Shown here one piece after another: positions 21,302 through 55,576 of a stretch of 64,000 bases of DNA. The stretch comes from an uncultured Rhodospirillaceae bacterium (GTDB lineage: Bacteria; Pseudomonadota; Alphaproteobacteria; UBA9219). The stretch is from assembly GCA_964626265.1 (NCBI GenBank), contig CAZVCG010000004.1, forward strand, positions 5,713 to 69,712. The letters run 5' to 3'. The translations under genes were made by a program, and so were the position numbers. How positions within the stretch are numbered: the first letter of the stretch is position 1; each line of letters starts with the position of its first letter. Under the pieces are notes generated by a model. It saw only the letters and a list, made by a program, of their open reading frames with translations. It did not search any database and was not told the DNA's origin.

Positions 21302-21520
21302 GGCCCTTCCCTTCAATTTCAATAAGTTACTAAAAAAAAGAACTAACTCTTGCATTCAGGACATACCCTAAATCACAAAAGCGGCAAAAAAATGGTTCCA
21401 TCTATGGTTTTTTCATGAATCTATTAATTAAATCATAAGATTAATTTCAGTCTTTCCCAAAAAGCATTTTTTGAACGGGTATACCTGAAAGTAACAATGG
21501 GTGTGTTCGTAAAAACACAA

Positions 21521-21733
21521 TTAATCGAGCTTACTTGACTTATATGGAAACGTTAAGTCGTTCGGGTCGAAAAACGCGCGGTAACGTTTATAGGCCTCTA
21601 CCAATTCCGGCATGTAATTAACGAGTGGCCTCAACCGGCAGAGTCCGATCAGGTACAATGGCGGGTTGTAACCGCCATGGTTAAACATGCTTTGTTTGCT
21701 GTATTTCTTGTAAGATATGTTGCGTAAGATCAT
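21521..21733 (-). CDS. Putative BrnA-like (ribbon-helix-helix) antitoxin
   Basis: Small ORF immediately downstream of BrnT, overlapping it by 53 nt. RLRPLVNYMPELVEAYKRYRA resembles the RHH strand-helix of BrnA. Start uncertain. Confidence 0.4.
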   Translation of the reverse strand: MILRNISYKKYSKQSMFNHGGYNPPLYLIGLCRLRPLVNYMPELVEAYKRYRAFFDPNDLTFPYKSSKLD

Positions 21734-21989
21734 ATAAATAATCTTCTCCCTTCATTAGCCGTCTAAGGCCAAATACGATGACGGTCTCGCCTTCGAGTTG
21801 AAAGACAAGCTGGTACAAACGCCCACGAATTTTGCCTACGGCCCTATAATATTGGCTGCCTCCATGCATATACGCCTTTGTGCACAGTGAGGCATTCGTC
21901 CAGTCGAACTCCCACGCCATATTGAAATTCAATCCCGTTTCGGCAATGTTTTTGGCATTTATTTTTGGATCGTAATCGATGTGAAACAC
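21681..21989 (-). CDS. brnT: BrnT-family toxin (DUF497, RelE-like ribonuclease)
   Basis: FHIDYDPKINAKNIAETGLNFNMAWEF ... YRAVGKIRGRLYQLVFQLEGETVIVFGLRRLMKGE matches the BrnT pattern (F.WD..K...N..KHG..F.EA...F......R....G...G.L..VV.T.R....RIIS.R). Confidence 0.6.
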   Translation of the reverse strand: MFHIDYDPKINAKNIAETGLNFNMAWEFDWTNASLCTKAYMHGGSQYYRAVGKIRGRLYQLVFQLEGETVIVFGLRRLMKGEDYLYDLTQHILQEIQQTKHV

Positions 21990-22110
21990 ATTTCCCCTTA
22001 TGCATTGCCGGTTACGTTGCGCTTACAATATTAGGAATATAATTCTATCTTGCGGAAAAGTCACGCGTTTTGTTTGGTTAATGGGGGATTTTCAAAAATG
22101 CCTTCAATAT

Positions 22111-22243
22111 GTCATCCCGACTAAAGTCGGGATCCAGTAGATATGGACAATATATTTCACTGTAATTGACACGTTGAACCGCCCAGACAAGGGCCAGTAA
22201 TTAATGGATGCTCCCTCTGGACCCCGACTTTCGTCGGGATGAC
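22111..22243. mobile_element. 133-bp palindromic repeat element (MITE/RPE-like), intergenic copy
   Basis: 25-nt palindromes in inverted orientation at both ends: 22111-22135 gtcatcccgactaaagtcgggatcc and 22219-22243 ggaccccgactttcgtcgggatgac. The internal sequence is related to the copy inside yejF. Confidence 0.55.
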
Positions 22244-22267
22244 GCCAATGGCAGCGCCTCCCTAGAC

Positions 22268-23905
22268 TTACTCGGCCAGTTTCTTCGCGACGTAGGCGCG
22301 GACTTTGTCAAGCGTGACGCGTTCCTGCTGCGCCGTGTCGCGGTCGCGGATCGTGACGGCCTGATCCTTGAGCGTGTCGCCGTCGATGGTGACGCAATAC
22401 GGCGTGCCGCATTCGTCCATACGGGCGTAGCGCTTGCCGATGGATTGCTTGGCGTCGTACTGGCACATGTAATCCTTGCGCAAGTCCATATAAAGCTTTT
22501 CGGCGACTTCGGGCATCCCGTCCTTGTTGACGAGCGGGAAGATGCCCATCTTGACCGGCGCGAGGGACGGCTTGATCTTGAGCCATTCCGGCGACGGACG
22601 GCTTTCGTCGTATTGATAAGCTTCGCACAGCAAGACCAGCACGCCGCGCGTCAGGCCGCTCGACGGCTCGACGACATGCGGCACATAGCGGCGGTTCGCT
22701 TCCTGATCGAAGTAGTCCAGCTTTTGCTTGCTGAACGTCTGGTGCTGCGTAAGGTCGTAATCGGTGCGATACGCCACGCCTTCCAGTTCGCCGAAGCCCG
22801 GCGACGTGAACGGGTATTTGTATTCGATGTCGGATGTGCCTTTGGAATAATGCGCGAGGTCTTGCGGCGCAATAATATGGCGGAACAGGTTTTCCGCCTT
22901 GACGCCGCAGCTTTCCCACCATTTCATGCGCAAGGCCACCCAGAACTCGTACCATGACAGGCCGTCTTCGGGCGCGCAGAAGAACTCGATCTCCATCTGC
23001 TCGAACTCGCGCACGCGGAAGATGAAGTTGCGCGGCGTGACTTCGTTGCGGAACGCCTTGCCGATTTGCGCGACGCCGAACGGGATCTTCACGCGGCAGG
23101 TATCGACGATATTCTTGTATTGCAGAAAGATGCCCTGCGCCGTTTCGGGCCGGAGATAGACTTTGCTGGCCTCGTCCTGAAGAACGCCCACGTGCGATTC
23201 AAACATCAGGTTGAACATGCGCGGCTCTGTCAAATCGCCGCCGCATTCGGGACAAGGCATGATAAGGCCCGTTTGCGCTTTTTGTTCCGTGGCCAGATAA
23301 CGTAGCAACTCAATTAAAGGCAGCGGCGACGGCGTATCCTTCTTATCCTCAACCAGCCATGACAGCGTGACCTGGGGATTTCTGACTAGCGCAAGACCGG
23401 GAGCCAGTTTTTTGCCTTTCTTCTGCGCCCATTGCAGGGCGGCTCCGGAGTCAAAAACGACTATGCTTCTCAATAAGGCGCCAAGCTCCAGAGAGTCCAC
23501 GGCAGCAACCTTCATGGCATCCGCAAACGATTTGACCCACTCGGCTTCATGAAGCATGTCCTCGACATGATCGGCGCGGAAAAGCTTTTTGCACTTGCGG
23601 CATGTTTGCATCGGATCGGCAAAACCGCCGACGTGGCCCGAGGCGTGCCACGTGGTCGGGTGCTGGATGATCGTGCTGTCGAGGCCGAGGATCGACATCG
23701 GCTTGCCGTCAGGGCCAAGCGGCGGACATTCCACCGTTTCGCGCCACCACTTGTCGCGCAGGTGGTTCTTGAGCTGCGTGCCGAGCGGGCCGAAATCCCA
23801 GAAACCGTTCAAACCGCCGTAAATCTCCGAGGCGGGATAAATAAACCCGCGGCGTTTGCACAAGGAGACAATGCGGTTCATGAGAGGCGTTTCGGGGGCG
23901 GCCAT
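22268..23905 (-). CDS. glyQS: Glycine--tRNA ligase, homodimeric alpha2 type
   Basis: N-terminal IVSLCKRRGFIYPASEIYGG..G.WD.GPLG is the class II alpha2 GlyRS signature, with an anticodon-binding C-terminus. Start set at ATG 23905; the track ORF is 105 nt longer. Confidence 0.85.
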   Translation of the reverse strand: MAAPETPLMNRIVSLCKRRGFIYPASEIYGGLNGFWDFGPLGTQLKNHLRDKWWRETVECPPLGPDGKPMSILGLDSTIIQHPTTWHASGHVGGFADPMQTCRKCKKLFRADHVEDMLHEAEWVKSFADAMKVAAVDSLELGALLRSIVVFDSGAALQWAQKKGKKLAPGLALVRNPQVTLSWLVEDKKDTPSPLPLIELLRYLATEQKAQTGLIMPCPECGGDLTEPRMFNLMFESHVGVLQDEASKVYLRPETAQGIFLQYKNIVDTCRVKIPFGVAQIGKAFRNEVTPRNFIFRVREFEQMEIEFFCAPEDGLSWYEFWVALRMKWWESCGVKAENLFRHIIAPQDLAHYSKGTSDIEYKYPFTSPGFGELEGVAYRTDYDLTQHQTFSKQKLDYFDQEANRRYVPHVVEPSSGLTRGVLVLLCEAYQYDESRPSPEWLKIKPSLAPVKMGIFPLVNKDGMPEVAEKLYMDLRKDYMCQYDAKQSIGKRYARMDECGTPYCVTIDGDTLKDQAVTIRDRDTAQQERVTLDKVRAYVAKKLAE

Positions 23906-24002
23906 ATGATGTCCTTTACATAAGTGCGTGTTAGAAACGCCCAGCTTATCAAGACTTTGGGCCCAAGCCAATGGGGGTTTTAGCGTTGAAAAAGCCTTAA
24001 AA

Positions 24003-45220: not shown

Positions 45221-46935
45221 CCCTACTCACCGTCGACAACCTGAGCGTGACGTTCGGACAAGGAAGCCAAGCCGTTCAGGCCGTGCGCAACATCAGCTTT
45301 TCGATGCAGCGCGGGGAAACGATGGCTTTGGTTGGCGAGTCCGGCTCCGGTAAATCGGTGACGGCGTTGTCGATCCTGCAACTCCTGCCCTACCCGCACG
45401 CGTGGCATCCCTCGGGGGCAATAACGTTTGATGAAAAGCTTCTCTTCAACGCTGACATGCCTAACGTGTCATTCCCGCGAAAGCGGGAATCAAGGGCGAG
45501 CGATAGCGAGCATGTGAGTCCACAAGAATTGACTCATATGGCCCGCCGACGCGGGCCACTGGATTCCCGCTTTCGCGGGAATGACATAGTAAATATAGAA
45601 ACCATCCGCGGGAACAGGATTGCGATGATCTTTCAGGAGCCGATGACGTCGCTTAACCCGCTTCACACGATCGAAAAACAGATCAACGAAGTCTTGTTCC
45701 TGCACAAGAACATGAATAAGGAACAGGCGCGAGCGCGGACGCTGGAGCTGCTTAAGCTTGTGGCTTTGCCAGACGCCGAAAAACGCCTGACAGCCTATCC
45801 TCATGAACTTTCTGGCGGCCAACGCCAACGCGTGATGATCGCGATGGCCTTGGCGAACGATCCGGACTTGCTCATCGCCGACGAGCCGACGACGGCGCTC
45901 GACGTGACGATACAGGCCCAAATTCTCGCTTTGCTGAAAGACCTTCAAAAGAAGCTTGGGATGGCGTTACTGCTCATTACGCATGACCTCGGCATTGTGC
46001 GTCATATGGCCGACAAGGTTTGCGTTATGCAACATGGCGAAATTGTCGAGCAAGGCGATGCAAATGAAGTATTCACACGACCGCGTCATCCCTACACGCA
46101 AATGCTATTGGCGGCGGAACCAAAGGGCCAAGCGTTGCCTGTTGACGCCGATGCTCCGGAAGTTTTCAGCGGCACGAATGTCAAAGTCCACTTTCCGATC
46201 AAGAAGGGCGTGTTGCGTAAGACGGTCGATTTTGTCCGCGCCGTGGACGGCGTTACGCTTAAGGTCCGGGCCGGAGAAACTGTCGGCGTGGTGGGCGAGT
46301 CAGGCTCCGGCAAAACGACGTTAGGGCTGGCGTTGTTGCGGTTGACGTCTTCGCAAGGCGCACTGGTTTTTTCGGGGCAGAATATCTCCGCATTGAATAA
46401 CGCGGACGTAAGACCGCTGCGCAAATCCATGCAAATGGTGTTTCAAGACCCCTATGGCAGCCTTAGTCCACGCATGACCATCGGCGACATTGTAGCCGAA
46501 GGCCTGGATATACATAAACTTTATCAGTCAGCTACGGATCGAGCTCAACGCATAGAAAATGCGTTGCAGGAAGTGGGGCTCGATTCCTCCATGCGCGACA
46601 GATATCCGCACGAGTTTTCCGGCGGCCAGCGCCAACGCATCGCCATCGCGCGCGCGATGATTTTGAATCCCAAGTTTGTAGTGCTGGACGAACCGACTTC
46701 CGCGCTCGATATGTCGGTGCAAGCGCAAATCGTGGACTTGCTGCGCGACCTGCAACAACGGCACGGCCTCGCCTATCTCTTCATCAGCCACGATTTGCGC
46801 GTGGTGAAGGCATTGTCGAACCACATCATCGTGATGAAAGCGGGCAAGGTCGTCGAACAGGGGCCTGCGAACGATGTGTTCACCTCGCCCAAGGAAGAGT
46901 ATACGCAGACGTTGCTGAAAGCAGCGCTTAGTTAG
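45217..46935 (+). CDS. yejF: Peptide ABC transporter ATP-binding protein YejF (tandem ATPase domains), carrying an in-frame ~40-aa insertion
   Basis: Two Walker A motifs (GESGSGKS twice), two LSGGQRQR signatures, and ATGA overlap with yejE. It is 572 aa, about 43 aa longer than E. coli YejF. Confidence 0.9.
45455..45600. mobile_element. ~118-bp palindromic repeat element (MITE/RPE-like) inserted in frame within yejF
   Basis: Inverted 25-nt palindromic termini at 45468-45492 gtcattcccgcgaaagcgggaatca and 45561-45585 ggattcccgctttcgcgggaatgac. The internal sequence is similar to the intergenic copy at 22111-22243. Translated as ...[39 protein letters not shown]... Confidence 0.55.
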
Positions 46936-55499: not shown

Positions 55500-55576
55500 T
55501 GGTCGGGGCGCCGAGATTCGAACTCGGGACCTCTAGTACCCAAAACTAGCGCGCTACCAGACTGCGCTACGCCCCG
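55500..55576 (-). tRNA. tRNA-Pro (anticodon UGG)
   Basis: Reverse complement folds as a cloverleaf: acceptor CGGGGCG/CGCCCCG, D-arm GCGC-AGTCTGGTA-GCGC, anticodon arm CTAGT-TTTGGGT-ACTAG (UGG), T-arm CCGAG-TTCGAATC-TCGG, and an encoded CCA. Confidence 0.85.

What the first reader, a model, noticed from the sequence alone, without database searches (positions are those of the whole stretch)
22111..22243. Intergenic copy of the same ~130-bp palindromic element between the brnTA pair and the glyQS 3' end
Two 25-nt hairpin-forming palindromes, 22111-22135 gtcatcccgactaaagtcgggatcc and 22219-22243 ggaccccgactttcgtcgggatgac, are near-perfect reverse complements of each other with 2 mismatches and flank 83 bp. 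The whole unit can fold into a long stem-loop. It lies 25 bp downstream of the glyQS stop and next to a toxin-antitoxin pair. The termini and parts of the interior match the element inside yejF, so the two define a repeat family. Elements of this kind can act as terminators, insulators, or recombination or integration sites.
Basis: seen in the sequence. Interest (0 to 1): 0.55.

Follow-up and report, generated by a model that had tools for sequence, protein, structure and literature searches.

The report
CGTC-type palindromic repeat dimer copy
The 133-bp segment after the glycyl-tRNA synthetase gene is one copy of a widespread, already described bacterial repeat made of two small DNA hairpins in mirror orientation, a type recently linked to a single-strand DNA nuclease, so it is real but ordinary.

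Summary
Window 22111-22243 holds two 27-nt hairpin motifs in inverted orientation around a 79-nt spacer, 24 nt after the glyS stop. A second unit, 45467-45586, sits in frame inside yejF. All four arms share one design: (C/T)GTC tag, 8-bp stem starting A-T/T-A, 4-nt NAAA loop, then C and a CAG tail. That is the definition of CGTC-1 tagged REPs arranged as head-to-head dimers (Di Nocera 2013, PMC3733652). This family includes Neisseria dRS3 and Rickettsia RPE-6. The same hairpin is the NTS/SRM motif bound and cut, as single-stranded DNA, by Ssn GIY-YIG nucleases (Chenal 2025, PMC11893778). A model built from 87 independent hairpins scores the four arms at 34.7-42 bits; the next best hit is 15.5. 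The A-type hairpin occurs in at least 119 stretches from many genomes, and 88 of 113 neighbouring pairs have tags outside. There are no target-site duplications and no terminator U-tract. No GIY-YIG gene lies in the window. The nearest relatives lack both insertions. The interiors of A and B are at most weakly related. Verdict: a new copy of a known repeat kind. Mobilisation or recognition by an Ssn-type nuclease is inferred, not shown.

The parts
22110..22137 (+). Left CGTC-1 hairpin of element A. Tag TGTC 22110-22113; stem 22114-22121 / 22126-22133 (ATCCCGAC/GTCGGGAT); loop TAAA 22122-22125; C 22134; tail CAG 22135-22137.
   Evidence: DNA fold -7.5 kcal/mol. CM R1 34.8 bits, E 5e-7.
22138..22216 (.). 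79-nt spacer of element A. It is AT-rich with one small internal GCCC/GGGC hairpin. No convincing relative was found.
   Evidence: The only relations found are weak: to the B spacer (p about 0.01) and to the Ga0265331 spacer modules (44/2000 and 263/2000 shuffles).
22217..22244 (-). Right CGTC-1 hairpin of element A, read on the minus strand: CGTC-ATCCCGAC-GAAA-GTCGGGGT-C-CAG. It has one T.G pair at stem position 2, which is a wobble pair in the glyS-sense RNA.
   Evidence: CM R1 38.9 bits, E 4e-8.
22268..23908 (-). glyS (dimeric glycine--tRNA ligase). Its stop TAA at 22268-22270 lies 24 nt upstream, in transcript sense, of element A.
21681..21989 (-). BrnT-like ORF, 121 nt downstream of element A on the same strand. 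Weakly supported.
45467..45586 (+). Element B, a 120-bp CGTC-1 head-to-head dimer with NTS/dRS3-type stems (ATTCCCGC). It is inserted in frame (40 codons, ...VSFPRKRES...LDSRFRGND...) in the loop between Walker A and the Q-loop of YejF. Its spacer carries an exact GCGAGCGATAGCGAGCAT module, also found in metagenome dimers.

Best explanation
Element A is one copy of a CGTC-tagged REP of family CGTC-1, arranged as a head-to-head dimer with the tags on the outside. The same hairpin type is called dRS3/NTS in Neisseria, Ssn-related motif (SRM) elsewhere, and RPE-6 in Rickettsia. Shown here: each arm has the defining anatomy, namely a (C/T)GTC tag, an 8-bp stem starting AT, a 4-nt loop, a C right after the palindrome and a CCA(G) tail. 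The dimer architecture is the rule for this hairpin in other genomes. The unit is absent from the orthologous sites of the nearest relatives. Inferred: the unit is a non-autonomous selfish repeat that exists as a hairpin in single-stranded DNA. There it would be bound, and nicked a few nucleotides 5' of the GTC, by a small single-domain GIY-YIG nuclease of the Ssn family encoded elsewhere in the genome. In a head-to-head dimer the two recognition strands are opposite, so the predicted nicks lie just outside each end of the unit. That geometry suits spread or removal of the whole dimer. Secondary consequence, also inferred: the element lies 24 nt after the glyS stop on the transcribed strand, so it gives the glyS mRNA a very stable 3' stem-loop. 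This could protect the 3' end or dampen read-through into the BrnT-like gene.
For: Anatomy. The family definition is quoted from PMC3733652: 8-bp stem with AT first, 4-nt loop, CCA tail, tag CGTC or TGTC, HH dimers predominant, spacers 20-100 bp. That paper also places uni-directional REPs close to the 3' end of the upstream ORF. Independent model: CM R1 was built from 87 hairpins that did not match my search pattern. It gives 34.7-42 bits for the four window arms, and the next hit is 15.5 bits. Spread: at least 119 stretches in GTDB species genomes, mostly Alphaproteobacteria. Architecture: 88 of 113 neighbouring hairpin pairs have tags outside, with spacers of 6-155 nt. Within one MAG the 44-nt spacer is conserved. 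A and B differ only at stem positions 3, 6 and 7, which are among the family's variable positions (2, 3, 6, 7). Ssn determinants come from PMC11893778: the C after the palindrome is needed for binding, the three nt upstream for cleavage, and the cut falls a few nt upstream. All are present in both arms. Association with the nuclease was reproduced: 5 single-domain GIY-YIG ORFs of about 95 aa occur among the fetched loci, and 4 of them lie within 100 bp of a hairpin or dimer. Insertion polymorphism: L122/L123 (GlyRS 83% identical, syntenic) and L124 (77%) have no element after glyS. The closest YejF (83%) lacks the 120-bp insert. No TSD. RNA stability.
Against: No GIY-YIG ORF exists in the 64-kb window. 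The rest of the genome could not be fetched, so a cognate nuclease is not shown. The A-type stem does not fit the published NTS consensus or the SRM search expression. The Neisseria enzyme lost activity when the palindrome sequence was changed. No paper shows that Ssn enzymes move these repeats; the 2025 authors only raise the idea. Only two units were seen in 64 kb, so multi-copy status in this genome is unproven. The covariation count is circular, because the hairpins were selected for pairing.
Confidence: 0.75

Rival explanations
1. The unit is mainly an RNA-level cis element of glyS. It would be a 3' stem-loop that stabilises the mRNA or terminates or attenuates transcription before the BrnT-like gene, retained for that reason.
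For: It lies 24 nt after the glyS stop on the transcribed strand. The glyS-sense RNA folds more stably than the other strand, -64 against -57.1 kcal/mol. The one stem mismatch is a G.U wobble only in that strand. PMC3733652 argues from the same placement and from G.T pairs that many such repeats act as RNA. The Rfam models WsnRNA46 and FtrB, both expressed sRNAs, contain the same hairpin type.
Against: There is no U-tract and no terminator-like site. Relatives with 83% and 77% identical GlyRS have no such structure after glyS. The same kind of unit sits inside a coding region in yejF, where it cannot serve this role. This is more likely a side effect than the reason the unit exists.
Confidence: 0.3
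2. It is a classical MITE: a deleted insertion sequence with terminal inverted repeats, moved by a DDE transposase.
For: 27-nt inverted termini, small size and intergenic position.
Against: No target-site duplication was found at A, at B, or at 91 dimers from other genomes beyond chance. The termini are themselves hairpins with an oriented tag. Partners in one dimer often carry different stems. Interiors are unrelated between genomes.
Confidence: 0.05
3. It is a recombination or integration target. It would be a site used by an IS110/Piv-type recombinase or a filamentous prophage, as dRS3 is in Neisseria, rather than a mobile unit itself.
For: PMC11893778 and PMC3733652 report dRS3 as a phage recombinase target and REPs as IS targets. 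NTS-type hairpins occur in at least 120 IMG/VR contigs.
Against: The A-type hairpin has no match in 2.9 million viral contigs. Nothing is integrated at A or B. This role would not explain the dimer architecture. It is compatible with the main explanation as an extra role.
Confidence: 0.1
4. It is a chance or gene-specific pair of hairpins unrelated to any family.
For: Only two units are visible in the 64 kb.
Confidence: 0.01

Closest known systems
CGTC-tagged REPs, family CGTC-1, head-to-head dimers (Di Nocera, De Gregorio, Rocco 2013, BMC Genomics 14:522; PMC3733652)
   Same: The tag is CGTC/TGTC. The stem is 8 bp and starts AT. The loop is 4 nt and the tail is CCA. Tags are outside, and the spacer falls in the 20-100 bp range. 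The host is alphaproteobacterial. The position is just after the 3' end of the upstream ORF. In-frame intragenic copies exist.
   Different: Nothing structural differs. I could not check whether the stem variant ATCCCGAC is among the published consensus variants, because the figures are not held. Copy number in this genome is unknown.
Neisseria dRS3 / NTS and Ssn-related motifs (SRM) with SsnA GIY-YIG ssDNA nucleases (Chenal et al. 2025, Nat Commun 16:2388; PMC11893778)
   Same: The right arm of element B fits the NTS with one mismatch and fits the SRM expression. All arms carry GTC before the palindrome and C after it, the bases that matter for cleavage and binding.
   Different: Element A's stems do not fit the NTS or the SRM expression. 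No ssn gene is in the window. In Neisseria the repeats form large mosaic clusters and modulate transformation, and nothing here speaks to that.
Rickettsia palindromic elements RPE-6 and RPE-4 (equated with CGTC-1 and CGTC-4 in PMC3733652)
   Same: A palindromic repeat inserted in frame in a protein-coding gene that stays intact (element B in yejF).
   Different: Element A is intergenic. Sequence identity to RPE-6 was not tested here.
REPINs / GTAG REPs with RAYT transposases
   Same: Two REP hairpins in inverted orientation form the replicating unit. There is no target duplication. An ssDNA hairpin is recognised by a small dedicated enzyme.
   Different: The tag is CGTC, not GTAG. The associated protein is GIY-YIG, not a HUH tyrosine transposase. 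Mobilisation has not been demonstrated.
Rfam WsnRNA46 (RF02625, Wolbachia sRNA 46) and FtrB (RF02748, Francisella sRNA B)
   Same: The WsnRNA46 consensus is itself a GTCAT-hairpin dimer of about 150 nt, and A aligns to it end to end. The FtrB consensus contains an NTS-type hairpin.
   Different: Scores are 32.5 against a gathering score of 65.3, and 23.8 against 66. These are not members. The Wolbachia hairpin is the longer CGTC-4 type.

Membership tests
CGTC-1 tagged REP (PMC3733652) | Unpaired terminal tag CGTC (TGTC or CCTC allowed) at one end of the hairpin | tested here: met
   TGTC at 22110-22113 (+). CGTC at 22244-22241 (-). TGTC on both arms of B.
CGTC-1 tagged REP (PMC3733652) | 8-bp stem with complementary A-T and T-A at positions 1 and 2, and a 4-nt loop | tested here: met
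   ATCCCGAC-TAAA-GTCGGGAT and ATCCCGAC-GAAA-GTCGGGGT, with one T.G at position 2.
CGTC-1 tagged REP (PMC3733652) | Short unpaired tail fitting CCA | tested here: met
   CCA(G) follows the stem in both arms of A and the right arm of B. The left arm of B has CAA.
CGTC-1 tagged REP (PMC3733652) | Head-to-head dimer (tags outside) with a 20-100 bp spacer as the predominant organisation | tested here: met
   A has a 79-nt spacer and B a 64-nt spacer. 88 of 113 neighbouring pairs in other genomes have tags outside.
CGTC-1 tagged REP (PMC3733652) | Repeated many times in the host genome | tested here: inconclusive
   The 64 kb holds four hairpins, forming two dimers, and nothing else above 15.5 bits. 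The rest of the genome could not be fetched. Relatives carry further copies at other sites.
NTS / SRM, target of Ssn nucleases (PMC11893778) | Fits CGTCATTCCCGCGMAVGCGGGAATCYRG (one mismatch) or the SRM expression HGTCWYN(0-2)YYVSBRHN(0-5)WNVSBRGN(0-2)RNCYNB | tested here: not met
   Only the right arm of B (45559-45586, -) matches the SRM expression. Neither arm of A does.
NTS / SRM, target of Ssn nucleases (PMC11893778) | GTC directly before the palindrome and C directly after it, the bases critical for cleavage and binding | tested here: met
   Present in all four arms. GTC is invariant, by selection on GTC, and the C after the palindrome is nearly invariant in 87 independent hairpins.
NTS / SRM, target of Ssn nucleases (PMC11893778) | A cd10448-type single-domain GIY-YIG gene in the same genome, often flanked by the repeat | tested here: inconclusive
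   None in the window, and the genome is not available. In other genomes, 4 of 5 such genes found lie within 100 bp of a hairpin.
NTS / SRM, target of Ssn nucleases (PMC11893778) | Strand-specific binding and cleavage of the single-stranded form by the cognate enzyme | not testable with these tools
   Needs protein and oligonucleotide assays.
REPIN / GTAG REP with RAYT | GTAG tag at the hairpin end | tested here: not met
   The tag is (C/T)GTC.
Classical MITE | Target-site duplication flanking the terminal inverted repeats | tested here: not met
   None at A or B. In 91 dimers the count of 2-3-nt or longer duplications equals the shuffled control.
Intrinsic terminator | GC-rich stem directly followed by a U-run | tested here: not met
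   0 terminator-like sites in 21400-22400.
Rfam WsnRNA46 (RF02625) | Score at or above the gathering threshold of 65.3 bits | tested here: not met
   32.5 bits, E 4e-5, full-length alignment.

The most novel reading that the evidence does not exclude
Head-to-head CGTC dimers may be the non-autonomous mobile partners of Ssn GIY-YIG nucleases. They would be the GIY-YIG counterpart of REPINs and RAYTs, moving as single-stranded DNA without target duplication. In one subfamily, two conserved sub-terminal modules frame an exchangeable centre. That subfamily comprises element B and the Ga0265331 dimers next to a GIY-YIG gene. Its centre differs completely between copies of the same size, and it might be cargo or a specificity-bearing segment rather than drift.
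Probability: 0.15. Interest if true: 0.7.

Novelty: new member of a known kind. Interest (0 to 1): 0.2.

Why it matters
For annotating this genome, the segment should be labelled as a CGTC-type REP dimer. It should not be called a gene-specific regulator, and the 40 extra residues in YejF should be read as a repeat-derived insert. More broadly, the published Ssn search expression misses this common stem variant, so surveys based on it undercount the family. The strict tags-outside pairing places the predicted nuclease nicks just outside each unit. That is the arrangement one would want to test if asking whether Ssn enzymes spread these repeats.

Tried and rejected
Full-text search for the repeat-encoded peptides ([14 protein letters not shown] and others) found nothing. 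So the organism remains an unnamed alphaproteobacterial MAG relative, and genome-wide copy number is unknown. A GIY-YIG regular expression found nothing in the window, and neither did phmmer. Rfam at gathering threshold found only a tRNA. blastn of element A against plasmids gave no match. None of the 119 genome loci shares more than the hairpin with the window, so none is the source genome. Interior relatedness of A to B, and to the spacer modules of the Ga0265331 dimers, is weak: 20/2000, 44/2000 and 263/2000 shuffles. I therefore do not claim it. The target-site duplication and terminator ideas were tested and dropped. The stem covariation count is not used as evidence of selection, because the hairpins were chosen for pairing.

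Full report
**Observation.** The inverted arms extend to 27 nt: 22111-22137 and 22217-22243, 93% complementary, 79 nt apart. A degenerate arm pattern matches exactly twice in the window, against 0.01 expected. Each arm is a small hairpin on its own. The whole unit also folds into one long stem-loop. It gives -64 kcal/mol (z -6.3) on the minus strand and -57.1 on the plus strand.

The upstream gene is a dimeric-type glycine--tRNA ligase. Its TAA stop is at 22268-22270, 24 nt from the element. The downstream ORF is only weakly BrnT-like, and its partner is unsupported. A second unit lies at 45467-45586 inside the YejF-type ABC ATPase gene. It is 120 bp long, in frame, and encodes ...VSFPRKRES...LDSRFRGND....

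**Anatomy.** The four arms align base for base:
- (C/T)GTC tag;
- an 8-bp stem that begins A-T, T-A;
- a 4-nt loop, TAAA or GAAA;
- a C directly after the stem;
- a CAG tail (AAG in the left arm of B).

A has the stem ATCCCGAC and B has ATTCCCGC. They differ at stem positions 3, 6 and 7, each change compensated on the other side. In both units the tags face outward.

**What it is.** A full-text search on the B stem led to two papers.

Di Nocera et al. 2013 (PMC3733652) define CGTC-tagged REPs:
- Family CGTC-1 has an 8-bp stem that almost always starts with complementary AT residues, a 4-nt loop and a tail fitting CCA.
- The tag is often changed to TGTC.
- The elements live mostly in Alphaproteobacteria.
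- They are predominantly organised as HH dimers, defined as tags outside, with spacers mostly of 20-100 bp.
- Between co-directional genes they sit close to the 3' end of the upstream ORF.
- They occur in frame inside genes.
- CGTC-1 corresponds to Neisseria dRS3 and to Rickettsia conorii RPE-6.

Every one of these features is met by element A, and by B for the intragenic case.

Chenal et al. 2025 (PMC11893778) show that the same hairpin is the target of SsnA. In Neisseria it is the NTS, CGTCATTCCCGCGMAVGCGGGAATCYRG; elsewhere it is the degenerate SRM. SsnA is a 94-aa single-domain GIY-YIG nuclease.
- It binds and cuts only the single-stranded form, and only one strand.
- It cuts a few nucleotides upstream of the motif.
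- The C after the palindrome is most important for binding, and the three bases before it for cleavage.
- ssn genes are often flanked by the repeat.

**Tests with outside data.** Most are from Alphaproteobacteria (Sphingomonadaceae, Hyphomicrobium and others). Some are from Beta- and Gammaproteobacteria and other phyla. None shares more than the hairpin with the window.

Scanning these loci for any GTC-tagged 8-bp hairpin gave 277 hairpins with many stem variants. Of 113 neighbouring pairs closer than 400 bp, 88 had tags outside, 15 had tags inside and 10 were tandem. Spacers were 6-155 nt. Partners often carry different stems. Within one Sphingomonadaceae MAG the 44-nt spacer is conserved between copies.

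I built a covariance model from 87 hairpins that did not match my search pattern. It scores the four window arms at 34.7-42 bits (E 7e-9 to 6e-7), and the next best window hit is 15.5 bits. So the window holds exactly two dimers.

The family-variable stem positions are 2, 3, 6 and 7. A and B differ only at three of these. GTC is fixed by my selection rule (hairpins were chosen on GTC), so its invariance is not independent evidence; stem position 5 is invariant and the C after the stem is nearly invariant. The pairing statistics are circular, because I selected paired hairpins, and I do not lean on them.

**Mobility signs.**
- The closest YejF homologue (83% identical, syntenic locus L120) lacks the 120 bp.
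- Without the insert, the window's loop has the usual length. The whole unit, spacer included, is therefore the insertion.
- The closest GlyRS loci lack any hairpin after glyS. These are L122/L123 (83%, syntenic, 207-bp AT-rich spacer, no BrnT) and L124 (77%, glyS followed 42 bp later by BrnT-BrnA).
- The same relatives carry CGTC-1 hairpins at other places.
- No target-site duplication is present at A, at B, or beyond chance at 91 dimers from other genomes.
- The base before GTC is C in 77% and T in 19% of ends, and the outer flank is C-rich.

**Link to the nuclease.** The window has no GIY-YIG ORF. Among the fetched loci, phmmer found five single-domain GIY-YIG ORFs of about 95 aa, all Pfam PF01541. 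Four of them lie within 100 bp of a hairpin or dimer. This repeats the published association on an independent sample, but it does not show that this genome has such a gene. Neither arm of A fits the published NTS or SRM expressions; only the right arm of B does.

**Interiors.** A scan of metagenome contigs for A-type homodimers of similar size gave four loci from one sample, Ga0265331. Their spacers have two conserved sub-terminal modules, CCGCGCGTCTGCGCGGCAT and ATGCTCGCTATCGCTCGCG, around unrelated centres of about 41 nt. One further copy has a centre of about 9 nt. One of these dimers lies 41 bp from a GIY-YIG gene.

Element B carries the second module exactly: 18 nt, reached by 0 of 2000 shuffles. 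It also carries an analogous small GC hairpin in place of the first module. Element A shows only weak similarity to these modules (44/2000 and 263/2000) and to B (20/2000). A and B are therefore two members of one family, not two copies of one sequence.

**Function.** I found no terminator-like site. The stable stem-loop just after glyS, stronger on the sense strand, could protect the mRNA 3' end or reduce read-through, as the 2013 paper proposes for such placements. I regard this as a side effect.

Rfam gives sub-threshold, full-length similarity of A to WsnRNA46, whose consensus is itself a GTCAT-hairpin dimer. It also gives sub-threshold similarity of B's arm to FtrB. Units of this type are thus known to be expressed as small RNAs in other bacteria.

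The most likely mechanism for the family is recognition of the extruded hairpin in single-stranded DNA by an Ssn-type nuclease. With tags outside, the two predicted nicks fall just beyond each end of the unit on opposite strands. That step, and any role in spreading the repeat, is inference.

**Verdict.** The finding is real and correctly read as a repeat family. It belongs to a kind that was described in 2013 and tied to a nuclease in 2025. Interest is low.

Noticed in passing
window 45440-45610; proteins P0004, P0007, P0009, P0011, P0021, P0047, P0054, P0058, P0093, P0116 (alignment A2): The YejF loop between Walker A and the Q-loop carries independent repeat-derived inserts of different types in many homologues. 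Examples are IPACAGMT, MPAQAGIQ...LDSRLRGSD, RHCE.../VIASAAKQSS and PSPLAGE.... P0024 has another insert further downstream. This loop looks like a permissive hot spot for palindromic repeats.
   Followed up: partly
L125 2107-2242, L126 7074-7208 and 11995-12095, L127 7344-7478, L128 2754-2890; window 45495-45558: A subfamily of dimers has two conserved sub-terminal spacer modules and completely different centres of equal length (about 41 nt; one copy has about 9 nt). Element B shares one module exactly although its terminal stems differ. One copy abuts a 96-aa GIY-YIG gene (L125 2283-2585, minus strand). Why the centres differ while the size is kept is unexplained.
   Followed up: partly
window 22090-22262 (+) and 45515-45605 (-): Sub-threshold Rfam matches were found: WsnRNA46 (32.5 bits, gathering 65.3, full length) and FtrB (23.8 bits, E 0.063). 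The consensus of both sRNA families contains the GTCAT-tagged hairpin, so these curated sRNAs appear to be built on CGTC-type repeats.
   Followed up: partly
window 22111-22137, 22217-22243: The SRM search expression published with the Ssn family does not match the ATCCCGAC stem variant. That variant is nevertheless common, with at least 119 stretches in species-representative genomes. Surveys using the expression would undercount.
   Followed up: yes
Viral-contig scans (L129-L208 and beyond): The NTS-type hairpin GTCATTCCCGCGNNNGCGGGAATC occurs in at least 120 IMG/VR contigs, some with arrays of up to 13 copies. The A-type hairpin has none.
   Followed up: no
window 22088-22115 (-): The left terminus of element A supplies a -35-like ATGACA, followed 16 nt later by GAAAAT, reading towards the BrnT-like ORF. 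A second promoter-like site lies at 22036-22064 (-). These are consensus matches only: 3 found against 1.6 expected.
   Followed up: no
window 21521-21989 (-); L124 7657-8179; L122 7642-7848: glyS is followed by a BrnT/BrnA pair in a 77%-identical relative, without the repeat. The 83%-identical syntenic relative has neither toxin nor repeat. The window's 'antitoxin' ORF has no family support.
   Followed up: partly
window 55503-55576 (-): A tRNA gene is the only Rfam match at gathering threshold in the window.
   Followed up: no
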